Virus record (IMG/VR): IMGVR_UViG_3300045988_176782
Span: 103,279-167,278 of that record
Direction: 5' to 3' (one strand)
DNA length: 64,000 bases
Source: a virus
A program made the position numbers and the translations under genes. The notes beneath the pieces are model-generated. The model was not told the origin of the DNA. It ran no database searches and saw nothing but the letters and a program-made list of their open reading frames with translations. Below are positions 1-55,575 of this stretch, piece by piece. Every line of letters starts with the position of its first letter. The stretch's first letter is position 1.

Positions 1-891
1 GTGGAAAAAGAAGTAGGAGATAATTTTCTTCGTAGTAAAATCTATACTACAACCTCCGGAAAACACCTACTTTTTATTAAACTTCTCGCCGCCGCAACAA
101 TTACACTAAACATTAATGCTTCTTTTGTTGATTGGGGCGACGGCACACAAAGTACTACTCTATCCCATACCTATTCTACTGCCGGCGCATACACTATAAA
201 ATGTGATGGTACAACACTAAAGGCAAACTTCATTTCTCCTAACAGCATTTTATATGAGGCGCATTTTGCAAAAGGCTTAACCACCATACAACAAAATGCC
301 TTTTCCAATCAAACTTTTCTCCAAATTCTAACGCTGCCTTCTTCTTGCACCAATATCGCTGCGGAAAATGTATTTAACGGTTGCGTTAGTTTAAATGCGT
401 TAGTGTTTCCAGCTAATTGTTCTATTACAAAGTTAAATGCTGTAAAAGTTTAGAATATAATTTTGCCTTCTACAATTTCTGAACTACCTTCTTCCTACAA
501 CAATAGTAATCCCTCTCTAAAACAAATTACTTTGCCTGAAGGTATAAAGGAAATTCCCGCCGCGTCCTTTTTGTATAATTATGGTTTGGAGCAAATTCAT
601 TTACCTTCTTCTTTGGTTTCTATTGGCTCCAATGCCTTTAAAGGATGCGCGAATTTACAAAAATTGGAAATCCCGCAATCAATTACTACCTTAAGTGTTG
701 ATTGTTTTAGGGATTGCACTGGCTTACTTTCTATTAAATTAAAGTCTCCTACGCCTCCTATTCTCCAAAATGGGCTTGTGTTTGATAAGTCAGCTTGTCC
801 CATTGTTGTGCCTAAAGGGACACTTACTACCTACAAAAACGCAACAAATTGGATATTACTCCAAGACCGCTTAAAGGAGGCCGTGCAATGA
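1..891 (+). CDS. BspA-type leucine-rich-repeat protein, 5'-truncated at window edge; one in-frame TAG (451-453) read through
   Basis: ORFs 1-453 and 463-891 share one frame and are joined by TAG. Repeated units such as LPSSLVSIGSNAFKGCANLQKLEIPQSITTL are typical of BspA-like LRRs. Stop is TGA 889-891. Confidence 0.7.
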
Positions 892-1061
892 TACAACAAA
901 AAATATATTCAACAATTCCACTTATTTACGAAACTAAAAGTGACCGTAATATGTGGATTAAAAGCGAACTTTCTGGCGCACTTTATGTTATTGCCTATGA
1001 CCCTATTCCAAAAAAATATAGCGAAACGGAGGAACCAATAAATGAGTCAACGAGTGATTGA
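888..1061 (+). CDS. hypothetical small protein (57 aa)
   Basis: ATGA start/stop overlap with the upstream gene; intact ORF; no motif recognised. Confidence 0.45.
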   Translation: MIQQKIYSTIPLIYETKSDRNMWIKSELSGALYVIAYDPIPKKYSETEEPINESTSD

Positions 1062-4666: not shown

Positions 4667-6523
4667 ATGGCTGAACACATTTTAAATACACGGATTACTC
4701 TAAAGTATGATACTTATGAAAATTGGCAAAAATCTACTTTAGTTCTGAAAGCTGGCGAAGTTGCAATCTGCGCAGTTCCAAGTGGTGTAACTGTTGAAGG
4801 CATCGCTAAGCCACCCGCCGTTCTTCAAAAAATTGGCGATGGTGTAAATGTCTTCAAAGATTTACCCTGGCTTCAAGCCGTTGCTTCTGATGTTCATACT
4901 TGGGCAAAAGCAGCGAGCAAACCTACCTATAAAGCAGATGAAATTACTGGCTTAGACACTTACATTACTGGTCAGATTCAAGATACTGATACTCAATATA
5001 CAATTGTTAAAGGCGACAACGATTATACATATAAGTTAATGTCTCGTGCTAAGGGCGCAGAGAATTACTCTACTGAGGTCGCTACTTTATCCATTCCCGA
5101 CCCCAGCGCGGATATTAATGTTCTTAAGGCCCTAGTTGGTGATACCGCAGTCGCTACTCAAATTAGCGAGGCTATTGCTGCTTTAAAACTAAGCGATACT
5201 TATGAGCAAAAGGGTGCTGCCGCAGCTGTAAAGACTGCTTTATTAGGCGACGCCGCGGAATCTTATAATACTTTAGGTAAGTTAGAAGATGCTGTAATTG
5301 CTGCGAAGGCCTCTGCCGATGAAAAAACTACTATGGCTGCCGTAGAAGCCAAAGACTATGCCACTAAGACAGAAGCCCAAGGCTACGCTACTGCTGTAGT
5401 TGGCGCGGCTGCAGATACCGTAGATAAGGACACTGTAAAGGGTGCCAAAGCTTATGCTAAGGGCCTTAATGATGCCACCAACACTCGCGTAGAAGCTCTA
5501 GAAACTGCCATTGGCGAAGGCGGCTCTGTTGATTCTCAAATTGATGCTAAGATTGCAGAACTGGATGCGGCAGAGGTTGCTGTTGGCACAGGTGAAATTA
5601 TTGAGAAGATTTCTCAAACCGACGGTAAGATTTCTGTAAGTAAGCGCGCTTTGGCTGCAGGCGATATTCCCACAATTGAACAGAATCAAGTGAATGGCCT
5701 TGCTGGCGCTCTGGCCGCAAAACAAGATACCTTGGCCTTCCAAAGCGACAACTATGATAAAGAAACAAATAAGGCCATCACTAAGAGCGACTTAGACACA
5801 GCTATTGCGGGCTTGACAGGCGTAACTCACTTCAAGGGCGTAGTAGAGAATCTACCTGTTTCTGCTGAAAACGGCGATATTTACATCAAGACTGATGGCA
5901 CTGAGCATATTTATGTAAAGCCTGATGCCGCGACAGAAGGCCGTTTTGAAGAACTGGGCGATCAAAATTCCCATATCAAGCACGGCACTGTTGTAGATAG
6001 CGATATTGCCGCTAATGCTGCTATTGCTCAATCCAAGATTGCCGGTCTAACCGATGCCTTAGCCGCAAAGGCTAACACTGCTGACCTTGGTACCATGGCC
6101 GTAGAAACCGCCACAAATTATATCAAGAAAACCGAAGCTTCTGGTTATGATGATATTCTAACCACTGCTGTTGCTGGCACAACTTACGAAACCAAGAAAG
6201 ATGCTACAGCTAAGCTAACCGAAGCTAAGGGCTATGTTGATACTGAGCTTGGTAAGCTAGACCTTACAGAAGTTACTGCTGGCCAAGGCACAATCATTGG
6301 AGCGATTTCTCAAACCGATGGTCTTATTAGTGTATCTACTCGTGAATTAACTGCTGATGACATCCCTGTTTTAGCACAAAGCAAAATCACTGGTTTAGAG
6401 GCCGCTTTAAATGCGAAGGCAAATGACGCTGATTTAGCAGCAATTGCAAAGAGCGGCTCTACTGATGATTTGATTCAAGGAACAGATACCTTAGTCTTTA
6501 ATTGCGGCGGTGCGAATGCGTAA
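4667..6523 (+). CDS. tail fibre protein, Mtd_N-type N-terminus and internal duplication
   Basis: N-terminus ILNTRITLKYDTYENWQKSTLVLKAGEVAI. The segment G.IIe.ISQTDG.ISVS.R.L.A.DIP...Q....GL..AL.AK occurs twice (about 5590-5720 and 6290-6420). Confidence 0.7.
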   Translation: MAEHILNTRITLKYDTYENWQKSTLVLKAGEVAICAVPSGVTVEGIAKPPAVLQKIGDGVNVFKDLPWLQAVASDVHTWAKAASKPTYKADEITGLDTYITGQIQDTDTQYTIVKGDNDYTYKLMSRAKGAENYSTEVATLSIPDPSADINVLKALVGDTAVATQISEAIAALKLSDTYEQKGAAAAVKTALLGDAAESYNTLGKLEDAVIAAKASADEKTTMAAVEAKDYATKTEAQGYATAVVGAAADTVDKDTVKGAKAYAKGLNDATNTRVEALETAIGEGGSVDSQIDAKIAELDAAEVAVGTGEIIEKISQTDGKISVSKRALAAGDIPTIEQNQVNGLAGALAAKQDTLAFQSDNYDKETNKAITKSDLDTAIAGLTGVTHFKGVVENLPVSAENGDIYIKTDGTEHIYVKPDAATEGRFEELGDQNSHIKHGTVVDSDIAANAAIAQSKIAGLTDALAAKANTADLGTMAVETATNYIKKTEASGYDDILTTAVAGTTYETKKDATAKLTEAKGYVDTELGKLDLTEVTAGQGTIIGAISQTDGLISVSTRELTADDIPVLAQSKITGLEAALNAKANDADLAAIAKSGSTDDLIQGTDTLVFNCGGANA

Positions 6524-7014: not shown

Positions 7015-8136
7015 ATGGCAGAAAAAATATTGCAAACAAGAATTTAGTTAAAATATGATACTGAAACCAACTGGAATAAAGCTACAAATTTTATTCCTAA
7101 AGCTGGCGAAATTATTTTATATTCTGATGGCGGCGGTACTGGTATTCCTAAAATGAAAGTTGGGGATGGAAGTACAAAAGTTGGAAATTTAAAATTTCTT
7201 AAAGGAGATGGAGAATATCTAACCTCTGTCCCTGCTGGGACTTGGACTTGGACTAATGGTACATCTGCAGGGCCTACTGCAAAATTAACTATTGACTCTA
7301 ATGCAACAACTATCGGCGCAATTCCAGCTGCTTCTTAGAGCCAAAGTGGTATAATTACAACAACTTCTCAAGTCATTTCTGGTAATAAAGCTATGTTAGG
7401 TAATTTTTCTGTTGGTAGCAGAACTGATGCAAATTTATATACTTTAAATATTAGTCGTAAAAGTGCTTCTGATGCATCTTCTATGCTGTTTTAGGGCTAT
7501 ATTAATGAAACCGCAAACAATTTTCAAATGTGCATTTATCGTTATGGAATAGATAATACCGAAGCTTGGCGTTTAATTCTAAATTTTTTAAATGGAACAA
7601 TTACAAGTGATTCTACTACTCCAATTACTCTTGGTTCTGCGGACATTCCTTGGACTGCTGTTTATGCTAAGAAATTTGTTGGTGGTGAAGCCACAACTTC
7701 CGTAGCAGGTTTGATGAGTGCAGAAGATAAAACTGCCCTTGATAGTTTAAGCGCTGTTTTTGGTGGCAGTTCTTCTAGTTCAGCTGGCACAAAAGGTCTT
7801 GTTCCTGCTCCTGCAAGTGGGCAACAAAATTATGTTTTACGTGGCAATGGCAGTTGGTCTCAATCTGTTGTTTCTACTACTGCGACACTAACTGCCAATG
7901 GCTGGTCTTCTTCTACACCACACACTCAAATCATTAGTGTTAGCGGTATTACTACGAATTCTAAGGTAGTAATTGATGTTAATTTAAGCGGACAAAGTTC
8001 TGACAATATTTCTAGTATTCTTGAAAATTGGAGTAATGTTAATGATATTCAAACTAATAGTGGCGCATTAACAGCTTATTGCTATGGTGATGTTCCTACA
8101 GTTAATTTGCCAATTAATATTATTGATATTAAGTGA
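7015..8136 (+). CDS. tail fibre paralogue, three in-frame TAG (7045, 7336, 7492)
   Basis: ATG 7015; ORFs 7153-7338 and 7528-8136 are in the same frame. N-terminus MAEKILQTRI*LKYDTETNWNKATNFIPKAGEI is paralogous to genes 1728, 4667 and 11208. Confidence 0.7.
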
Positions 8137-8145
8137 GGTTAAGTT

Positions 8146-9261
8146 ATGGGACAATGTTTAATTACACGTCGTGGTGGAAAGACATCTGTAAATACTGACT
8201 TGCCTGCTTTAGATAATAATTATCCTCAAGATGTTATAATTTGGGGAGGAGAAGCAAATGCTTCTTTTAAAGTTGTAATTAGTCGGGCCGGAACCGACAC
8301 AAATTATGCCTATCAATGGTTTAAGGATGGTGCAGTAGTTGGGACTGCTGCAACATATTCAGAAACGACACCTACTGATTATGGTTCTCACACTATACAA
8401 TGCGTTATAACTACCTCTTAGGGAATTATATCTTCTCGTATTGCCACTTATATTGTAAAGAATCCTAATTTCTTATATTCATACACTGGTAATATAACTA
8501 CCGGTTCCAATAATACCTTCTATCTTACTACAAGTGGCACCTTAAATATTGCTAATTATGGTAAAAATGAAGATGGAATGTTTGATATTTTTCTCCTTGG
8601 TGGCGGTGCAGGTGGAGCTGTTACTGGCCTTGGTGGTGGCGGTTATTATACTATTACTTCAAAGAAGAAATTAGAAAAAAACACTAATTATCAGTTTATC
8701 ATCGGTGCAGGCGGCGCGGCTGGTTCTTTAACTGCGGCAGGCGGTAATGGCGGCTCAACTACGACGACTATTAGCAATATTAATGAAGGAGCGGGCGGAA
8801 AAGCTGGCAACAGAGTTGACGCATATATTAGTTGTACTTGCCAAAGTCCTAATGGCACAGCGGGTAATATTTACGAATATAGATATGGTTATAATCAAGA
8901 TACAGGTGTTTATACTATTACAAATCGCAGTTCTGTAGGGAGCGGAAGTCGGACTTTAAATTTATTATACCCATTAAAACAAGTTTCTGCTTTATATAAC
9001 GGCTCAGCTATTAATGTTTATCTCGCTCCAAATAAAATTGCTTATTGGTGTTATATTACAGAGCAAAAGACCATTTCTAGTAATAATGCAACTGCTGGTG
9101 CGGGCGGTTCAATAACATATATATTTGGAAGTAACTCTAATCTTCAGGTTAGCGGTCCAGGCGTGTTTAACAGCAATGCTGCTTTACGTTATGGCTAGGG
9201 CGGTAATAATAATATTTTAGCAGGTAAGAATGGACTAGCCGCGATTAGGTTTAGTTCATAA
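8146..9261 (+). CDS. Ig-like plus glycine-rich-domain tail protein, two in-frame TAG (8419, 9196)
   Basis: ORFs 8146-8421 and 8578-9198 are in the same frame and continue to TAA 9259-61. The YQWFKDGAVVG...HTIQCVIT Ig-like unit, GGGAGG tracts and ...GLAAIRFSS end parallel the next gene. Confidence 0.65.
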
Positions 9262-39463: not shown

Positions 39464-39553
39464 TGGCCCTTAGTTGAATGGTGACAACAGCTGACTCTAA
39501 ATCAGTAAGTGGGGTTGACCCCGCAGGTCTTGGTTCGAATCCAAGAGGGCTAA
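39464..39553 (+). tRNA. suppressor tRNA, anticodon CUA (reads UAG), class II (long variable arm), no encoded CCA
   Basis: Acceptor TGGCCCT/AGGGCTA (U1-A72, G2-U71). D stem GTTG/CAAC. Anticodon stem GCTGA/TCAGT with loop CT-CTA-AA (CTA 39497-99). 22-nt variable region with GGGG-TTGA-CCCC hairpin. T arm CTTGG-TTCGAAT-CCAAG. Discriminator A. Confidence 0.8.
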
Positions 39554-40537: not shown

Positions 40538-40610
40538 AGTTGTTATGGTGTGAAAATCCAACCCATCAAGCCTCTTAATAATGCTCAAACCGATGGGAGT
40601 TTCATAGCTT

Positions 40611-40708: not shown

Positions 40709-40773
40709 AAGACATATACAGCAAAAGATTTTACATCGCATAATAGTTGGCTGATTACCTACAATGTGTCTTG
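40709..40773 (+). repeat. AAGAC..GTCTT element copy (E2)
   Basis: AAGACAT-ATACAGCAAAA...GTGTCTT-G. Confidence 0.6.
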
Positions 40774-40816: not shown

Positions 40817-41425
40817 ATAATAAAGAAAAGATATTTTTCTTTACTATATGATACCTCGGTGAAGAGCATTTGGCCAATGTGCCGAGAACAAACGGAAGAT
40901 AGCCAGCTCCATATGATGGATACATTATATGCCTGAGCCGCGAAAACAGTGATGTTTAGCGATAGGAGAAAAGACTCCAATATCAAGTTTGTGTGCTTTG
41001 TATTTCGCAATTTAACGCATAATTTCTCTGGAGAACACAATAGAAAGCAGGATGAATAGTCCTGCCGAATCCAAGGCGCCGTTAGCTGGTGACTGTCGGG
41101 GAAAAGATACGGCCTTGGAAACAACCACAAGTTCTTTTGTGATGAAACACAGAAATGTGATATAACAGAGGTTTGTAGTCTGAGTAGCTCAACACAGCGA
41201 ACAAAAAGATGATACAAATTGGCTATTGTTTCTAATTTGCTGAATGGCTTGGGTGAAAAGTGCGAGTAGTCAATCTCGTTAGAGCGTTGTTTGGATAAAG
41301 AAGTCAAGGAGTAGCTAACTTGGCTCAGCCTTTATCTTCTCTATGGCGGAATAAGATTGAAGAAATCACAAAGTAGGGCGAAGGTCCATCAGTTAGTAGA
41401 GAAAAATATCTTTTCTTTTTTTTAT
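40817..41425 (+). ncRNA. large (about 600 nt) structured RNA closed by a 25-bp terminal helix (ROOL/GOLLD-class candidate)
   Basis: 40822-40846 AAAGAAAAGATATTTTTCTTTACTA pairs with 41394-41418 TAGTAGAGAAAAATATCTTTTCTTT (one mismatch), followed by a T-run. No sense ORF. Many internal helices, e.g. CCAAGGC...GCCTTGG and GCAGGA..TCCTGC. Confidence 0.65.
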
Positions 41426-42236: not shown

Positions 42237-43565
42237 ATGTCTGAACATGTAGGTTATGTTGTAAAAATTAATTCATTGCGGCCTCATTCTAATGCTGACC
42301 GTCTTCAAATTGCTACTATTTTTGACTCTAATGTTATTGTTAGTCTTGATACCCATCTTGATGACATTGGCGTGTATTTTCCTTCTGATATTCAGCTCTC
42401 TAAGGAATTTTGTAAAGTAAATGACCTTGTTCGTCGTAAAGATGAAAATGGCAATCCTGCAGGTGGCTATCTTGACCCAAATAAGCGTAATATTCGTCCG
42501 TTGAAGTTGCGCGGTGAAAAAAGTGATGGTCTATATCTGCCCATTACTTGTATGATGGAGTTCTGTCCTATTTCTGACCTTAAGGTTGGCGACACTATTG
42601 GTGTTGTAAATGGGCACGAAATTTGTAAGAAGTATATTCCCCATCGCACGAAGGCATACCATTATACTGAAAAAGTAAGGAAGCAAAAGGTTAATTTTGC
42701 TCCTACCTTTTTTGAGCATTGCGATACCGCTCAACTTGCATACAACCTTGAAGCTTTCCGTGCAGGAGATGTTGTAGAGCTAACTCTTAAAATGCACGGG
42801 ACCAGTGCGAGAATGGGCTATCTGCCTTTGCTGCAACCTCGGACTTTGCTAGATAAAATTCTTCGTCGCACTCGCAAAACTTATGGAAATGTTATTGGCA
42901 CTCGCCGCGTTGTATTGGATGAAACTCATACTGGTGGTTTTTATGAGGACAATGCTTTCCGACGCCATATTGCTAAAAAGGTTGAAGGAAAACTCCATCG
43001 TGGAGAAACTATTTATGGAGAAATTGTAGGCTTTCAAGGTCCCAATGGCGCGCCTATTATGTCTTCTGTGAAAAACTCTAAAATTTCCGATAAAGCATTC
43101 ACGAAGCAATATGGTGAAGAAACTGTATTCTCTTATGATTGTAATGCTGCGAATGGTTATGAAGATGAACATCCTTGTTGTGAATTATATGTTTATCGTA
43201 TGACTATGGTAAATGATGACGGCGATGTGGTAGATTACTCTCCTGCGCAAATCCGTTATCGTTGTGAGCAAATGGGAGTTAAAGTTGTTCCTCAATTTGA
43301 AGTATTCGTAATTCCTCAAGATGAACCCCATCCTGGTGAATATGTAGTACGTAAAGTTGAAGAATACTATGACGGTCCTGACCCTATTGGTAAAACCCAT
43401 GTACGCGAAGGCGTTGTTGCTCGTATTTTGAATCGGAATAATTTTGCGGTTTATAAAATGAAGAATTGGAACTTCAAATGCCTTGAGGGTATTGTTAAGG
43501 ATGAAGCGGCAGAACCAGATATGGAAGAAGCGCAAGAAGAACTAGTGGAGGAGCAAACTGAATGA
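42237..43565 (+). CDS. RNA ligase with N-terminal OB/tRNA-binding-like domain (Rnl5-like architecture)
   Basis: N-terminus VVKINSLRPHSNADRLQIATI (tRNA_bind-like). Nucleotidyl-transferase motif I LKMHGTS (KxHG). Confidence 0.65.
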   Translation: MSEHVGYVVKINSLRPHSNADRLQIATIFDSNVIVSLDTHLDDIGVYFPSDIQLSKEFCKVNDLVRRKDENGNPAGGYLDPNKRNIRPLKLRGEKSDGLYLPITCMMEFCPISDLKVGDTIGVVNGHEICKKYIPHRTKAYHYTEKVRKQKVNFAPTFFEHCDTAQLAYNLEAFRAGDVVELTLKMHGTSARMGYLPLLQPRTLLDKILRRTRKTYGNVIGTRRVVLDETHTGGFYEDNAFRRHIAKKVEGKLHRGETIYGEIVGFQGPNGAPIMSSVKNSKISDKAFTKQYGEETVFSYDCNAANGYEDEHPCCELYVYRMTMVNDDGDVVDYSPAQIRYRCEQMGVKVVPQFEVFVIPQDEPHPGEYVVRKVEEYYDGPDPIGKTHVREGVVARILNRNNFAVYKMKNWNFKCLEGIVKDEAAEPDMEEAQEELVEEQTE

Positions 43566-45631: not shown

Positions 45632-45761
45632 TTTGGATGATTTGTATAAGATTACTTGTGAAGAATATTACAACTATATGGGATTTGATACATATGCTCC
45701 TGATTACGAAGGCGGTTCTACTGAAGAATTTGAATTAAAATTTGACGAAAACGAAAAATAA
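45624..45761 (+). CDS. small acidic protein (45 aa)
   Basis: ATG overlaps the upstream stop; ends inside the next promoter. Confidence 0.35.
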   Translation: MFDLDDLYKITCEEYYNYMGFDTYAPDYEGGSTEEFELKFDENEK

Positions 45762-45770
45762 ATATATAAT
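45742..45770 (+). promoter_or_regulatory. promoter TTGACG-N17-TATAAT driving a tRNA-like transcript
   Basis: -35 at 45742-47, -10 at 45765-70. Confidence 0.65.
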
Positions 45771-45901
45771 ATATTCAGAAAGTGAGAAACGGACAAGGCT
45801 TTGGCAAGTGAAGGAACTTTGATGTAGGAGATGAAAGTCGTTTGAACTAATAAAAAGTTCCTAATAAATTGGTGGGATGCGAGTGGTTTCTTACTTCTTA
45901 T

Positions 45902-46022
45902 GTGGGGTTAGTGTAATGGCAGCACGTTGGTTATAAGTGAGTCTTGGCAAAGAGTCATCAGCAATTATTCTTTCTTGCAGGGAGCCCGAAGGACAGGGTT
46001 CAATTCCCTTGACCCTACACCA
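45902..46022 (+). ncRNA. tRNA-like gene with oversized anticodon/variable region (about 121 nt), encoded CCA
   Basis: Acceptor GTGGGGT/ACCCTAC plus A plus CCA. U8, D arm GTGT-AATGGCA-GCAC. T-arm-like CAGGG-TTCAATTC-CCTTG. About 45 extra nt between the D and T arms; anticodon not assignable. Confidence 0.4.
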
Positions 46023-47882: not shown

Positions 47883-47945
47883 ACGGCAGATACAGCAAAT
47901 TTTTAAGCTTGTGATTAGGGATTACAAATGCGATTTCCTGCCGTG
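47883..47945 (+). repeat. AAGAC..GTCTT-type element, covarying variant (E3)
   Basis: ACGGCAG-ATACAGCAAAT...CTGCCGT-G: same core, different but complementary flanks. Confidence 0.6.
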
Positions 47946-48624: not shown

Positions 48625-48740
48625 GCCAAGGTAGCTTAATTGGTAGAGCAATAGAGTAAAAAGGAATCTTGTAAAAGATTTTGGCCGCGATTGTTTATAT
48701 TTGGGTCTGTGTGTTCTCGGTTCAAGTCCGAGCCTTGGCT
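48625..48740 (+). ncRNA. tRNA-like gene with a 43-nt insertion in the anticodon loop
   Basis: Canonical acceptor GCCAAGG/CCTTGGC, D arm GCTT-AATTGGTA-GAGC, anticodon stem ATAGA/TCTGT, 5-nt variable region and T arm CTCGG-TTCAAGT-CCGAG. The loop is 50 nt and contains the hairpin AATCTT-GTAA-AAGATT. The 3' loop part ATTTGGG would give anticodon TTG. Confidence 0.45.
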
Positions 48741-48747
48741 TTACCAT

Positions 48748-49511: not shown

Positions 49512-49611
49512 AAGACACAGGTTAAACAGCAATACTTATAGTGGTTAATAAAATTTTTGTTGTATAAAATTTTTAATGGGTTCAAATCCCACAAAAGAAC
49601 CCTGCGTCTTG
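49512..49611 (+). repeat. AAGAC..GTCTT element copy with inserted T-arm-like remnant (E5)
   Basis: AAGACAC...AACAGCAATAC...TGGGTTCAAATCCCA...GCGTCTT-G-TTTTTT. Confidence 0.5.
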
Positions 49612-49711: not shown

Positions 49712-49790
49712 GTGCGCGAGTAACCGAATTGGCATAGGTACTGGTCTAAGAAGCCAGGTTTTATGAGTTTAAGTCTCACCTTGCACACCA
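49712..49790 (+). tRNA. atypical tRNA, anticodon AAG (Leu codon CUU) but short variable region
   Basis: Stem CTGGT/GCCAG, loop CT-AAG-AA. Acceptor GTGCGCG/CTTGCAC has one mismatch. Irregular D arm. CCA encoded. Confidence 0.45.
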
Positions 49791-50133: not shown

Positions 50134-50198
50134 AAGACAGTTACAGCAAATCCTCAAAAGATGCGATTGTTAAAATTACGTTATTATTTACTGTCTTG
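50134..50198 (+). repeat. AAGAC..GTCTT element copy (E7)
   Basis: AAGACAG-TTACAGCAAAT...CTGTCTT-G. Confidence 0.6.
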
Positions 50199-53550: not shown

Positions 53551-53992
53551 TTTAACCAGACTGAGAGTTAGAGGTAAATACCTGCTCGTGATGATTTTAA
53601 ATGTAATCATGAAAACCTCATAAAATATGGCACGCAGAGAGCTAGGCTCTACAATGGAAACGCTATACGAGATAGGAGACCCCTTACAGACGTAACAGTG
53701 TATGCCAAGATGCCGCGGCATAAGGTGCAATTCCTGAGTAATTGGTGTCGGCAAGTCCGAGCTGTTTTAAAGGAGCGGGCAGAGCGCAAAAATATGATGG
53801 GACAACTGCTTACCTCATATTTTGCTCAGTAGGCGGTCGTGCCGCAGGAAGGCCCACAGGTATGTGGAGTATAGCAAGTCGGGGAGTTAGATGCAAGCCA
53901 GAATTGGGTTAGAACCGACAGGGAGAATAATTCTCTAACAGAGTAAAGGTATGGATGCGGCAATGAGACGCGACCTTTACTCTTTTTATTTT
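53551..53992 (+). ncRNA. structured RNA of about 440 nt between tRNA-Thr and the DUF2828/Ro-like gene, ending in an intrinsic terminator
   Basis: No sense ORF; GC-richer than the surroundings. Long-range GTTAGAG (53566-72) / CTCTAAC (53927-33). T-arm-like GTCGG-CAAGT-CCGAG. Terminal hairpin AGAGTAAAGGT...ACCTTTACTCT plus a T-run. Confidence 0.5.
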
Positions 53993-53997
53993 AAAAT

Positions 53998-54026: not shown

Positions 54027-54087
54027 ATGTCTATAAAAGATAAGCAATAGCTCTATTGCTTCCAAAATGAAAAGGAGAAAAGAAAAC

Positions 54088-55575
54088 ATGAATAATCTAC
54101 TAAATTCCCTAAAGCAAGAAACCAACTATACCTACACCACCAATGGCGCAGTAGCGCACAAATCTACCCTAAACAAAGTCCTTGATCTATTTGCCCTTGG
54201 CGGCGCTTATCGTGTAAAGAGTGACAATGACGTTATTCTTCTCTTTAAAGAAGCATATGACGAGAATCCTGAACTCGCGCTAAAGTGCTTGTTCTTTATT
54301 CGTGATATTCGCGGCAATGGTTATGGTGAACGTCGCTTTTTCCGTGTATGCCTTCATTGGCTTGCTACACAACATCCCGAAGTTGTGAAGCGAAATATTA
54401 ACTATATTCCATTTGTTGGCCGTTATGACGACCTCTATGCTATAATGGATACTCCTTGTATGCTGGATGCTTTTACTTTCTTTGATCGCCAACTGCGACT
54501 TGATATGGAATGCCAAACTCCCAGTTTATGTGCAAAGTGGATTTGGTCAATGAATTGTTCTTCTGCCGAACATAAGAAATATGGTAAGGCACTTGCAGAT
54601 TATATGCGTTTAACTCCTAAGCAATATCGTAAGATGCTTACTGGTTTGCGCGCGAAGATTAAGATTGTTGAAACTCTAATGTCTCAGAATCGTTGGGATG
54701 AAATTCAATTTGATAAATTACCTTCTAAGGCCGGCTTTAAGTATCGTAATGCTTTTGCAAAGAACGATTACACTAAAGAACGCTATGAAGCCTTTATGAA
54801 GTCTAAGACCACTAAGGTAAATGCAAAAACCTTATTCCCCTATGAAGTCGTAAAGCAAGCTATTAACGCTGATTGGCAAGATGAACTAACCTGCAATACT
54901 CTTGAGAAGTATTGGGAGAATCTTGCTGACTATTTCAATAATGCTACTTTTAATGCTCTGGCCATTGTTGATACTTCTGGTTCTATGCGTAGTGGTGCTG
55001 CTTCCGCCGCGCCTATTGATGTGGCAATTTCTCTTGGTATGTATTGTGCGGAAAAAGCTAATGGTCCTTTTAAGAATCATTATATCAGTTTTTCCTCTAA
55101 GCCTCAATTGATTGAAATTAAGGGTGTCAATTTTGTTGACAAGGTTCAGCGTATTTACCAAACTAATCTTTGTGAAAATACTAACATTGAAGCTACTTTT
55201 GATCTTCTTTTAAATAATATTGTGAAGTATAATTTAAATGAAGAAGATATTCCAGAGTATCTTGTAATTATTTCCGATATGCAGTGGGACGAAGGGGTTT
55301 GTGAAATTCGCGGGCGATACTATATGCCTGCGGCGAATCCTCAAACTTTAATTGACCAAATTAAAGAAAAGTGGAAAAGTGTCGGAATAAGGATGCCTAA
55401 ATTAATTTTCTGGAATGTCAACGCAAAACATCCTGTCATCCCTGCTCTTGATGGAAATTACAGTTATATCAGCGGCTTTAGCCCCGCGATTTTTGAACAA
55501 ATTATGACCGGTAAAACCGGCGTAGAACTAATGCTTGAAGCACTAAGTTCTGAACGTTATAAAGACATTCATTAA
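54088..55575 (+). CDS. DUF2828-type protein: helical-repeat N-domain plus C-terminal vWA (Ro60/TROVE-like architecture)
   Basis: YTTNGAVAHKSTLNKVLDLFALGGAYR N-terminal signature. MIDAS IVDTSGSM. GGAGAA RBS before ATG 54088 (ATG 54067 is also in frame). Confidence 0.6.
   Translation: MNNLLNSLKQETNYTYTTNGAVAHKSTLNKVLDLFALGGAYRVKSDNDVILLFKEAYDENPELALKCLFFIRDIRGNGYGERRFFRVCLHWLATQHPEVVKRNINYIPFVGRYDDLYAIMDTPCMLDAFTFFDRQLRLDMECQTPSLCAKWIWSMNCSSAEHKKYGKALADYMRLTPKQYRKMLTGLRAKIKIVETLMSQNRWDEIQFDKLPSKAGFKYRNAFAKNDYTKERYEAFMKSKTTKVNAKTLFPYEVVKQAINADWQDELTCNTLEKYWENLADYFNNATFNALAIVDTSGSMRSGAASAAPIDVAISLGMYCAEKANGPFKNHYISFSSKPQLIEIKGVNFVDKVQRIYQTNLCENTNIEATFDLLLNNIVKYNLNEEDIPEYLVIISDMQWDEGVCEIRGRYYMPAANPQTLIDQIKEKWKSVGIRMPKLIFWNVNAKHPVIPALDGNYSYISGFSPAIFEQIMTGKTGVELMLEALSSERYKDIH

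What the first reader, a model, noticed from the sequence alone, without database searches (positions are those of the whole stretch)
45742..46022. Own-promoter tRNA-like gene with about 45 extra nucleotides between the D and T arms
- Acceptor stem GTGGGGT/ACCCTAC, U8, D arm, a T-arm-like hairpin, A73 and an encoded CCA are all present.
- The anticodon/variable part is about 68 nt, against about 23 nt in a class I tRNA or about 38 nt in a class II tRNA. No canonical 7-nt anticodon loop can be drawn.
- It has a dedicated consensus promoter and a leader of about 130 nt, like the suppressor tRNA.
- The insertion is far too short for a bacterial group I intron.
- A small spliced intron is possible, perhaps linked to the phage RNA ligase. 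So is a tRNA mimic.
Basis: seen in the sequence. Interest (0 to 1): 0.65.

Follow-up and report, generated by a model that had tools for sequence, protein, structure and literature searches.

The report
tRNA-shaped phage Y-like RNA
This is a real, structured RNA gene built like a tRNA but carrying a conserved 46-base extra module; it belongs to a large, apparently undescribed family of phage RNAs that sit beside a Ro60-like RNA-binding protein gene, so it most likely acts as that protein's partner RNA rather than as a decoding or spliced tRNA.

Summary
Window 45902-46022 (+) has a 7-bp acceptor stem, U8, a D arm, a T arm (one bulged U), A73 and CCA. About 46 extra nt interrupt the 5' strand of the anticodon stem. 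ARAGORN and the Rfam tRNA model do not call it.

It is not an oddity. More than 70 distinct phage RNAs share this architecture, and all their helices covary. The insert is a module: a hairpin (P1, GNNA loop), 2-3 nt, then an invariant (A/U)CAGCA(A).

The same P1+ACAGCAA module also occurs as free-standing ~60-nt stem-loops between phage tRNA genes, four of them in this window. That argues against an intron.

Both forms cluster on the same strand next to a ~500-aa DUF2828/DUF7788 gene (window 54067-55575). Its predicted fold matches Ro60/TROVE. In 42 of 43 loci holding that gene a structured motif lies on the same strand, at a median 97 nt. This includes 10 of 11 cultured phages examined.

The window copy's anticodon-like loop is 4-5 nt closed by 2 bp in the window and one near-identical relative and mispaired in the other; read with one closing pair it is 6-7 nt without U33. 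So it cannot decode.

Best reading (about 0.5): a tRNA-scaffolded analogue of Y RNA that partners the phage Ro60-like protein. Binding is inferred, not shown.

The parts
45742..45770 (+). sigma-70-like promoter TTGACG-17-TATAAT
   Evidence: 11 of 12 positions match. Identical in the two close relatives. Function not tested.
45771..45901 (+). ~130-nt leader, possibly a structured stem-loop (outer stem plus GGAACTTT/AAAGTTCC)
   Evidence: Two substitutions in relatives keep the inner helix as G-U pairs. Fold z-score is only -1.7. The leader is specific to this lineage: relatives L130 and L131 have a tRNA plus an ACAGCAA stem-loop upstream instead.
45902..46022 (+). tRNA-shaped RNA, 121 nt (acceptor, D arm, split anticodon-like stem, inserted module, variable loop AGGA, T arm, A73, CCA)
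   Evidence: Model R1 scores 78.6 bits. Not called by ARAGORN or Rfam.
45937..45958 (+). module hairpin P1 (GTGAGTCTT-GGCA-AAGAGTCAT, GNNA loop)
   Evidence: Compensatory A-U to G-C change in L001. The homologous helix has changes on both sides at all 6 pairs across the family.
45958..45964 (+). conserved motif UCAGCAA (family consensus (A/U)CAGCA(A))
   Evidence: C, G, C and A are invariant in 42 sequences. The same motif follows the P1 5' strand in the free-standing elements.
45977..45985 (+). residual anticodon-like stem-loop GC-AGGGA-GC
   Evidence: The loop carries indels among three 97%-identical phages: AGGGA in the window (5 nt, closed GC/GC), AGGG in L002 (4 nt, closed GC/GC), and GC-AGGGA-CC with a C-C mismatch in the closing stem in L001. 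Relative L130 has UUGGG. Other members have 7-8 nt loops.
48625..48743 (+). second tRNA-embedded member (hairpin AATCTT-GTAA-AAGATT; GCCGCGA in place of ACAGCAA; loop ATTTGGG)
   Evidence: R1 58.7 bits. Rfam tRNA 48 bits with a 43-nt insertion. Missed by ARAGORN in default mode.
40710..40771 (+). free-standing P1+ACAGCAA stem-loop, just upstream of the ROOL RNA
47883..47944 (+). free-standing P1+ACAGCAA stem-loop (ACGGCAG...CTGCCGT) in front of the tRNA array
49512..49610 (+). longer P1+ACAGCAA element holding a T-arm-like hairpin (TGGGTTCAAATCCCA)
   Evidence: P1 pairs at 9 of 10 positions.
50135..50196 (+). free-standing P1+ACAGCAA stem-loop inside the tRNA array
54067..55575 (+). Ro60-like protein gene (Pfam DUF2828 + DUF7788), the proposed protein partner
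   Evidence: Pfam; the top 11 Foldseek PDB hits are all Ro60/TROVE, full length, E 1e-7 to 4e-5; genomic association with the RNA family.
42237..43565 (+). RNA ligase (PF09414), RNA-repair context
   Evidence: Syntenic in L130. RtcB and an RNA ligase lie next to the DUF2828 gene in Listeria phage P61.

Best explanation
The element is a non-decoding, tRNA-scaffolded small RNA that works like a Y RNA. It would be transcribed (here perhaps from its own promoter) and its ends matured like a tRNA's by RNase P and 3' processing. It keeps an L-shaped acceptor/D/T body.

A conserved module projects from the anticodon stem: helix P1 followed on the same strand by single-stranded (A/U)CAGCAA. I propose this module is the docking site for the phage Ro60-like DUF2828/DUF7788 protein encoded 8 kb downstream. 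The tRNA body, like the tRNA-like domain of bacterial YrlA, would recruit or mimic substrates of tRNA-handling enzymes within an RNA-repair or RNA-quality-control system. That context includes an RNA ligase, ROOL RNA and a tRNA array.

Shown: the structure, family membership, module autonomy, the genomic linkage to the gene, and the Ro60-like predicted fold.
Inferred: physical binding, processing, and the downstream role.
For: 1. The family is real.
- A D-loop/T-loop pattern with a long gap retrieved over 119 viral loci.
- 42 aligned members form a standard pair in 95.6% of cells, and 20 of 27 pairs change on both sides.
- Model R1 finds about 75 distinct long members, some with other D arms and often 2-4 in tandem.

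2. The module is autonomous.
- ACAGCAA occurs 179 times on the tRNA strand against 53 on the opposite strand outside the tRNA-like genes.
- 27% of occurrences are closed by a 7-bp stem, against 7.7% for permuted motifs.
- P1 covaries between copies, even within one genome.

3. Linkage to the protein.
- In loci fetched without reference to the protein, DUF2828 is in the flank of 24 of 59 family loci against 3 of 58 others (Fisher p=4.8e-6).
- 42 of 43 DUF2828 loci carry a same-strand structured motif, at a median 97 nt and within 1 kb in 34. Counts are 233 same-strand against 57 opposite.
- Members abut the gene in L012, L080, L065, L093 and L106.
- They also abut it in the cultured phages B3, PX29, Thrax2, P61, Mushroom, F368, SEP9, phiKSUM, Porthos and Silverleaf.
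- In the whole SEP9 genome the only intergenic structured copies are the three just 3' of the gene.

4. The protein is Ro60-like.
- AF2 model pLDDT 77.8; Foldseek's top 11 hits are Ro60/Rsr/phage TROVE, probability 1.0.
- Some records annotate it 'Ro-like RNA binding protein'.
- In Porthos and Silverleaf, sub-threshold Rfam YrlA hits occupy the same position.

5. It does not decode.
- The loop is 4-5 nt where its 2-bp closing stem forms (window, L002), mispaired in L001, with indels among the three near-identical relatives.
- Family 'anticodons' duplicate normal tRNAs in the same arrays.
Against: - No binding or expression data exist. The link is guilt by association, and tRNA arrays, RNA-repair genes and DUF2828 tend to share one genome region.
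- The window copy is 8 kb from the gene, although on the same strand and within the same RNA-rich block.
- The motif differs from the known Ro60-binding motifs GNCGAAN0-1G and GGUCCGA (PMC4201824).
- Up to about 10 motif copies per locus is many for Y RNAs.
- Foldseek TM-scores are only 0.39-0.53, and Pfam TROVE itself is not hit.
- Many family members keep a perfect 5-bp/7-nt anticodon-like stem-loop with U33 and plausible discriminator/anticodon combinations. That would also suit real tRNAs.
- Many fetched loci are near-duplicates, so the effective sample is smaller than the counts.
Confidence: 0.5

Rival explanations
1. It is an intron-containing tRNA. The ~46-nt module would be cut out by a protein endonuclease (or by RNase P/Z-like cuts on a minihelix-like P1 stack) and the halves sealed by the phage RNA ligase. 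This would give a functional tRNA.
For: - The two halves of the anticodon-like stem add up to 5 bp in most members.
- Many members have 7-nt loops with U33 and anticodon/discriminator pairs that obey identity rules: GUC with G73 three times, GUU with G73, and CAU, UGU and UAU with A73 (sequences).
- An RNA ligase is nearby, and RtcB is nearby in P61.
- GenBank annotates the PX29 member as tRNA-Leu with an intron.
- 'Enigmatic' tRNA introns are reported in Lak megaphages (PMC6784885).
Against: - The same module exists free-standing, with no exons.
- The insertion point slides from 26/27 to 31/32 and lies in the stem, not at 37/38.
- No group I or small-ribozyme hit.
- The window copy and L130 would still have 4-6 nt loops after 'splicing'.
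- The apparent anticodons are redundant with normal tRNAs in the arrays.
- Lak introns are unrelated: 93 nt, at 37/38.
Confidence: 0.15
2. The P1+ACAGCAA module is recognised by something other than the Ro60-like protein. Candidates are a processing or punctuation signal for maturing polycistronic tRNA transcripts, or a decoy. In the decoy case the anticodon-stem-loop look-alikes would soak up host anticodon nucleases.
For: - Elements lie in spacers directly after tRNA CCA ends and are followed by U-rich tracts.
- About a quarter of the short free-standing copies hold a 5-bp stem with a CUNNNAA loop resembling Lys, Arg, Thr or Asn anticodon loops.
- RNA ligases lie in the neighbourhood.
Against: - In phages with no nearby tRNA array (SEP9, phiKSUM, F368, Silverleaf) the elements still hug the DUF2828 gene.
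- A conserved 55-nt copy lies about 50-60 nt upstream of the DUF2828 start codon in several phages.
- Anticodon-like hairpins are absent from most cultured-phage copies.
Confidence: 0.2
3. The window copy is a decaying relic (pseudo-gene) of the family with no present function.
For: - The T stem has a bulged U.
- The anticodon-like loop is shortened and indel-prone.
- The element is no more conserved than its flanks among the three 97%-identical phages.
Against: - All four substitutions inside helices keep pairing, one of them fully compensatory.
- The motif and GNNA loop are intact, and a strong promoter-like site and encoded CCA are retained.
- It still scores 78.6 bits.
- A 5-nt loop is shared with the more distant relative L130. 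That suggests a tolerated lineage feature rather than random decay.
Confidence: 0.1

Closest known systems
Bacterial/phage Y RNAs of the YrlA type (Rfam RF02553; Chen et al. 2014, PMC4201824)
   Same: - A small RNA that combines a protein-docking module with a tRNA-like D/T/acceptor domain.
- Encoded on the same strand close to a Ro60-type gene, often in several copies.
- A short conserved single-stranded motif lies next to a stem.
- RNA-repair neighbourhood (RtcB, ligases).
- In Porthos and Silverleaf, YrlA-like hits occupy the same position beside the same protein family.
   Different: - YrlA is a circular permutation: its ends lie in the Ro-binding stem and its 'acceptor' is capped by a loop. 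This RNA has true tRNA topology with a 7-bp acceptor stem, A73 and CCA.
- The motif is (A/U)CAGCAA, not GNCGAAN0-1G.
- There is no Rfam YrlA hit in the window.
- The partner protein is DUF2828/DUF7788, not Pfam TROVE.
Thermus phage phiLo phiRo60 with Yrl1/Yrl2 (PMC12135203; PDB 9KOP)
   Same: - A phage-encoded Ro60 homologue with adjacent small partner RNAs of stem-bulge-stem design.
- 9KOP is the best structural match to the window protein.
   Different: - Yrl1 and Yrl2 carry the CGAA motif and no tRNA body.
- Binding is shown experimentally there and only inferred here.
'Enigmatic' introns in Lak megaphage tRNAs (Devoto et al. 2019, PMC6784885)
   Same: Over-long phage tRNA genes in tRNA arrays that bacterial tRNA finders miss.
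   Different: Lak inserts are about 93 nt, sit at 37/38 in the anticodon loop, look like nested tRNAs and lack the P1/ACAGCAA module.
T4 stable RNAs C and D (species 1 and 2) in the T4 tRNA cluster (from memory, not tested)
   Same: Phage small stable RNAs of about 120-140 nt, co-transcribed and processed with tRNAs, with tRNA-like ends and unknown function.
   Different: No sequence comparison was made here. T4 has no DUF2828 hit that I examined.

Membership tests
Canonical tRNA (Rfam RF00005 / ARAGORN) | 7-bp acceptor stem, D arm, T arm with TTCRA loop, discriminator | tested here: met
   The T stem needs one bulged U.
Canonical tRNA (Rfam RF00005 / ARAGORN) | Continuous 5-bp anticodon stem with a 7-nt loop and U33 | tested here: not met
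   The stem is split by 46 nt. The loop is 4-5 nt where the 2-bp closing stem forms (window, L002) and mispaired in L001, or 6-7 nt with A33 if only one closing pair is counted.
Canonical tRNA (Rfam RF00005 / ARAGORN) | Recognised by standard tRNA detectors | tested here: not met
   No ARAGORN call, also in intron mode. No Rfam tRNA hit at E<=10.
Group I intron-containing bacterial tRNA | Catalytic core of about 200 nt or more in the anticodon loop | tested here: not met
   The insert is 46 nt. No Intron_gpI hit.
Protein-spliced (archaeal/eukaryal type) intron-containing tRNA | Intron at or near 37/38 with a bulge-helix-bulge at the splice sites, plus a splicing endonuclease | tested here: inconclusive
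   Position not met: the insert is in the stem 5' strand. No bulge-helix-bulge was evident by eye. The endonuclease was not searched for systematically. Free-standing copies argue against an intron.
YrlA / Y RNA (RF02553) | Match to the covariance model; permuted topology with the termini in the Ro-binding stem | tested here: not met
   No hit in the window. The termini are in the acceptor stem.
YrlA / Y RNA (RF02553) | GNCGAAN0-1G (or GGUCCGA) Ro-binding motif | tested here: not met
   The motif here is UCAGCAA.
YrlA / Y RNA (RF02553) | Encoded near a Ro60-type gene, on the same strand | tested here: met
   For the family: median 97 nt, 42 of 43 loci. For this copy: same strand, 8 kb upstream of 54067-55575.
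YrlA / Y RNA (RF02553) | Bound by and stabilised by the Ro60 protein | not testable with these tools
   Needs RIP or EMSA.
Phage 'P1+ACAGCAA' tRNA-embedded family (defined here, model R1) | tRNA body + split anticodon-like stem + GNNA hairpin + (A/U)CAGCA(A) | tested here: met
   78.6 bits, full-length alignment.
Ro60/TROVE proteins (for the proposed partner 54067-55575) | HEAT-repeat ring plus C-terminal vWA domain | tested here: met
   Predicted structure; the Foldseek top 11 hits are Ro60/TROVE over about 520-590 alignment columns. There is no sequence-level hit to PDB or to Pfam TROVE.
tmRNA | tRNA-like domain plus tag reading frame and pseudoknots | tested here: not met
   Only a 15-nt T-loop match of 10.8 bits. 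ARAGORN finds none.

The most novel reading that the evidence does not exclude
P1+ACAGCAA RNAs, both free-standing stem-loops and tRNA-embedded forms like this one, are a previously unrecognised and very widespread class of phage Y-RNA analogues. They would be bound by the DUF2828/DUF7788 branch of Ro60-like proteins, which is present in over 700 cultured phages including Felixounavirus, P100-like Listeria phages, Campylobacter, Staphylococcus, Enterococcus and T4-like Aeromonas phages and cyanophages. Their tRNA or anticodon-arm look-alike parts would let the RNP engage tRNA-handling or tRNA-cleaving enzymes, for example to protect or repair the phage's tRNA supply against host anticodon nucleases.
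Probability: 0.35. Interest if true: 0.85.

Novelty: new variant of a known kind. Interest (0 to 1): 0.72.

Why it matters
Ro60/Y-RNA particles are conserved from bacteria to humans, yet their bacterial and phage roles are poorly understood, and only the YrlA/CGAA-type partner RNAs are catalogued.

If the reading is right, a second RNA partner class exists that is absent from Rfam, for a much larger phage branch of Ro60-like proteins. It comes in two topologies: a plain stem-loop, and a module grafted into an otherwise complete tRNA.

This would explain a set of 'pseudo' or 'intron-containing' tRNA annotations in phage genomes, for example in cyanophage B3 and Aeromonas phage PX29. It would give a sequence handle (P1 + ACAGCAA) for finding the RNAs. 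It also names experimentally tractable phage-host pairs in which to ask what phage Ro RNPs do in the tRNA-centred arms race.

Tried and rejected
- blastn of the region and of a family member against cultured phages found nothing. The family is visible only by structure or pattern.
- Neighbour-protein searches with single small ORFs returned only the two 97% relatives.
- A closing helix 'Px' between the A/U-rich 5' part of the insert and the linker after CAGCAA looked compensatory in one subgroup: GUAUUA/UAAUAC, GUAUAU/AUAUAC, GUAAA/UUUAC and GUAG/CUAC. Family-wide it is not better than shuffles (mean 4.16 against 3.92 bp), so I do not claim it.
- tmRNA-like, tRNA-Sec/allo-tRNA (8/4) and K-turn readings were considered and dropped. 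Other members have normal 7/5 stems, there is no tag frame, and there are no tandem G-A pairs.
- Small self-cleaving ribozymes (hammerhead, twister, pistol, hatchet, hairpin) gave no Rfam signal.
- A phage-RNAP promoter reading of TTTAGGATAGTTACAGCAA (SP6-like start) was rejected, because the P1 strands covary and the P1 sequence is not fixed.
- The test of whether the odd tRNAs fill gaps in the arrays' anticodon sets came out negative: they are redundant.
- Lak phage intron sequences are unrelated.
- Ten literature searches found no description of this family.

Full report
**1. The observation**

Window 45902-46022 (+) reads as follows:
- GTGGGGT (acceptor 5' strand), then TA
- GTGT-AATGGCA-GCAC (D arm), then G
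- TTGG, followed by 46 nt
- GC-AGGGA-GC, then CCGA
- AGGA (variable loop)
- CAGGG-TTCAATT-CCC(T)TG (T arm)
- ACCCTAC (acceptor 3' strand), then A, then CCA

ARAGORN reports 13 tRNAs in the window but not this one. Rfam reports 14 tRNA hits, a ROOL RNA and an abiF RNA, but nothing here. At E<=10 the region gives only a 15-nt T-loop match.

A TTGACG-17-TATAAT site lies at 45742-45770 (11 of 12 positions), followed by a ~130-nt leader.
- The extra sequence interrupts the 5' strand of an anticodon-like stem (TTGG/CCGA).
- A residual short stem-loop sits at the anticodon position.
- The T stem has one bulged U.

**2. It is a member of a large family**

An exact search with the 3' end found two 165-kb IMG/VR phages that are 97% identical over the region. 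Their substitutions inside helices all keep pairing: A-U to G-C, two changes to G-U, and U-G to C-G. The anticodon-like loop differs by indels: AGGGA in the window and AGGG in L002, both closed by GC/GC; in L001 the stretch reads GC-AGGGA-CC, so the closing stem has a C-C mismatch.

About half of the hits share one architecture.

On an alignment of 42 members:
- 95.6% of cells form a standard pair.
- 20 of 27 pairs change on both sides.
- Slid controls drop to 38-55% paired.

A covariance model (R1) then found about 75 distinct long (100-154 nt) members across the loci. These include members with quite different D arms, often 2-4 in tandem, and a second copy in this window at 48625-48743. Some members are hit by Rfam's tRNA model with a large insertion. 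The window element scores 78.6 bits.

**3. Anatomy of the insert**

After purine 26 come 2-4 nt that pair with the last nucleotides before the variable loop. The module follows:
- an A-rich stretch
- hairpin P1 (5-7 bp, usually with a GNNA loop)
- 2-3 nt
- an invariant (A/U)CAGCA(A)
- a variable A/U-rich linker

Then come 1-3 nt that complete a 5-bp composite stem around a loop of 4-8 nt. The point where the module enters the stem slides between members, from 26/27 to 31/32 (sequences).

**4. The module is autonomous**

Outside the tRNA-like genes, ACAGCAA is strongly biased to the tRNA strand: 179 against 53 occurrences in 64 loci, with about 43 expected per strand.

Most of the excess is a ~55-75-nt free-standing element lying between tRNAs. 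Its layout is:
- P1 5' strand
- 1-3 nt
- ACAGCAA
- a variable interior
- P1 3' strand
- a U-rich tract

P1 differs from copy to copy yet stays complementary. Examples are AGGATAG/CTATCCT, ACGGCAG/CTGCCGT, AAGACAC/GTGTCTT, AAGTCTC/GAGACTT and AAAGGAC/GTCCTTT.

ACAGCAA is about twice as frequent as permuted versions of itself. It is closed by a 7-bp stem in 27% of cases, against 7.7% for the permuted motifs.

The tRNA-embedded form is the same unit with changed connectivity. There P1 is closed by a tetraloop, and the tRNA body occupies the strand that returns to P1 in the free-standing form.

The window holds four free-standing copies: 40710-40771, 47883-47944, 49512-49610 (with a T-arm-like hairpin) and 50135-50196. 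Neither form is in Rfam 15. An element that also exists without exons is hard to call an intron.

**5. Linkage to a Ro60-like protein**

Clustering the ORFs of the family loci gave one dominant protein, about 470-506 aa. The window's copy is 54067-55575, Pfam DUF2828 + DUF7788.

Association statistics:
- Among loci fetched by the RNA pattern alone, the protein is in the flank of 24 of 59 family loci against 3 of 58 others. Fisher p=4.8e-6.
- Restricted to arrays of at least 5 tRNAs, the counts are 18 of 45 against 3 of 32, p=0.004.
- The three exceptions carry other over-long tRNA-like genes with the same D arm.
- The RNAs often abut the gene on the same strand, as in L012, L080, L065, L093, L106, L105 and L027.
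- Starting from the protein instead: two of three relatives at 57-63% identity carry clear family members upstream (L130, L131). L132 has only a 97-nt tRNA-like hit at 47.3 bits.
- Across 43 loci with the gene, 42 have a same-strand structured motif. The median distance is 97 nt, 34 lie within 1 kb, and counts are 233 same-strand against 57 opposite.
- A conserved 55-nt copy sits about 50-60 nt upstream of the start codon in several phages.

The protein is found in 704 cultured phage records. Some annotate it 'Ro-like RNA binding protein'. I examined eleven cultured phages:
- Synechococcus B3 and Aeromonas PX29 have embedded members. GenBank annotates these as tRNA-Pseudo and as tRNA-Leu with an intron.
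- Bacillus Thrax2, Listeria P61, Salmonella Mushroom, Campylobacter F368, Staphylococcus SEP9, Fusobacterium phiKSUM, Enterococcus Porthos and Mycobacterium Silverleaf have free-standing copies right beside the gene.
- Vibrio nt-1 gave nothing clear.

In the complete SEP9 genome, the only intergenic structured copies are the three directly 3' of the gene.

**6. What the protein is**

It has no sequence match in the PDB. An AlphaFold2 model from a 25-sequence alignment (pLDDT 77.8, pTM 0.76) matches Ro60/TROVE proteins. These take the top 11 Foldseek places over the full length:
- phage phiRo60 (9KOP)
- Xenopus Ro60 with RNAs (2I91, 1YVP, 1YVR)
- Deinococcus Rsr (2NVO)
- human Ro60

E-values run from 1e-7 to 4e-5, probability is 1.0 and TM-scores are 0.39-0.53. 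Isolated vWA domains follow.

Ro60 proteins work with Y RNAs encoded nearby on the same strand. Bacterial YrlA joins a Ro-binding stem to a tRNA-like domain (PMC4201824). A phage Ro60 binds two adjacent Yrl RNAs (PMC12135203).

In Porthos and Silverleaf, sub-threshold Rfam YrlA hits lie beside this same protein family, next to an ACAGCAA stem-loop.

**7. Decoding is unlikely**

- The arrays already encode normal tRNAs with the 'anticodons' that family members appear to carry.
- Loop length ranges from 4 to 8 nt.
- The window copy and its relatives differ in loop length at 97% overall identity.
- L130 has a 5-nt loop.

**8. Conclusion and limits**

The best-supported reading is a tRNA-scaffolded Y-RNA analogue whose P1+(A/U)CAGCAA module docks the phage Ro60-like protein. 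The tRNA body would supply tRNA-type processing and stability, and perhaps recruit tRNA enzymes, within an RNA-repair-type neighbourhood (RNA ligase at 42237-43565; RtcB and a ligase in P61).

Binding, processing and function are inferences. The alternatives are splicing, a processing or decoy role independent of the Ro-like protein, or a decaying copy. They remain possible at lower probability.

I found no paper describing the family. The nearest reports are YrlA, phiLo Yrl1/2 and the unrelated Lak-phage tRNA introns.

Noticed in passing
window 48625-48743 (+): A second over-long tRNA-like gene (119 nt; Rfam tRNA 48 bits; R1 58.7 bits). It has the same GNNA hairpin (AATCTT-GTAA-AAGATT) but GCCGCGA in place of ACAGCAA, and an ATTTGGG loop. 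ARAGORN misses it in default mode.
   Followed up: partly
window 40710-40771, 47883-47944, 49512-49610, 50135-50196 (+): Four free-standing P1+ACAGCAA stem-loops, all in the RNA-rich block between ROOL and the Ro60-like gene. The third contains a T-arm-like hairpin (TGGGTTCAAATCCCA).
   Followed up: partly
window 40562-40598 (abiF RNA), 40831-41406 (ROOL RNA, 295.8 bits): ROOL and abiF RNAs lie just upstream of the RNA ligase. ROOL recurs next to ACAGCAA stem-loops and the DUF2828 gene in relative L130 (2689-3275) and in Listeria phage P61 (L126 3454-4005, 89 bits). This suggests ROOL belongs to the same RNA/RNA-repair neighbourhood.
   Followed up: no
window 53560-53995 (+): A ~430-nt noncoding stretch of higher G+C lies between tRNA-Thr and the Ro60-like gene. 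It ends in a terminator-like hairpin plus a U-tract and is followed by a TTGACT-17-TATAAT site. It has no Rfam match, and its fold z-score is only -1.4. It may be another structured RNA.
   Followed up: partly
L020 409-462, L028 8257-8311, L056 232-286, L099 3583-3637, L075 10864-10917: A conserved 55-nt P1+ACAGCAA element (AGAATGTTAACAGCAACTTTAAATTTTCAAGCATATCGAAAA...ACATTCT) sits about 50-60 nt upstream of the DUF2828 start codon in several unrelated contigs. It may be an autoregulatory leader or a co-transcribed partner RNA.
   Followed up: no
L056 ~870-960 (-), L099 ~8930-9020 (-), L121 668-776, L066 6652-6759: In these variants P1-NN-ACAGCAA is followed directly by an anticodon-like stem-loop, a variable loop and a T arm. 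They are tRNA-like RNAs in which the motif replaces the D arm.
   Followed up: no
free-standing elements in many loci (e.g. L017 521-580, L099 12023-12082, L074 2708-2767): About a quarter of the short free-standing elements contain a 5-bp stem with a 7-nt CUNNNAA loop. It looks like an anticodon arm (UUU, CUU, UCU, UGU and others). U occupies loop position 2 in 35 of 48 hairpins found.
   Followed up: partly
window 39464-39553 (+): A 90-nt tRNA with anticodon CUA (amber suppressor; ARAGORN labels it Pyl) has a long variable arm. This hints at stop-codon recoding in this phage.
   Followed up: no
window 49714-49787 (+): An Rfam tRNA hit (39.5 bits) that ARAGORN does not report.
   Followed up: no
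L018 ~7474-7573 (-), L109 4692-4791, L060 ~5908-6012 (-): Other over-long tRNA-like genes with the same GTGTAATGGTAGCAC D arm but a different interior. They lie in loci that also encode the DUF2828 protein.
   Followed up: no
L128 1118-1468 (Enterococcus phage Porthos); L130 2251-2452: A phage-encoded tmRNA (143.7 bits) lies in the tRNA region near the Ro-like gene of Porthos. A sub-threshold group I intron hit (44.2 bits) lies just upstream of ROOL in L130.
   Followed up: no
L135 6922-7038 (Aeromonas phage PX29), L127 6863-6972 (Synechococcus phage B3): GenBank annotates these family members as 'tRNA-Leu' joined from two pieces (that is, with an intron) and as 'tRNA-Pseudo-GCA'. Both are likely mis-annotations of this RNA class.
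   Followed up: partly
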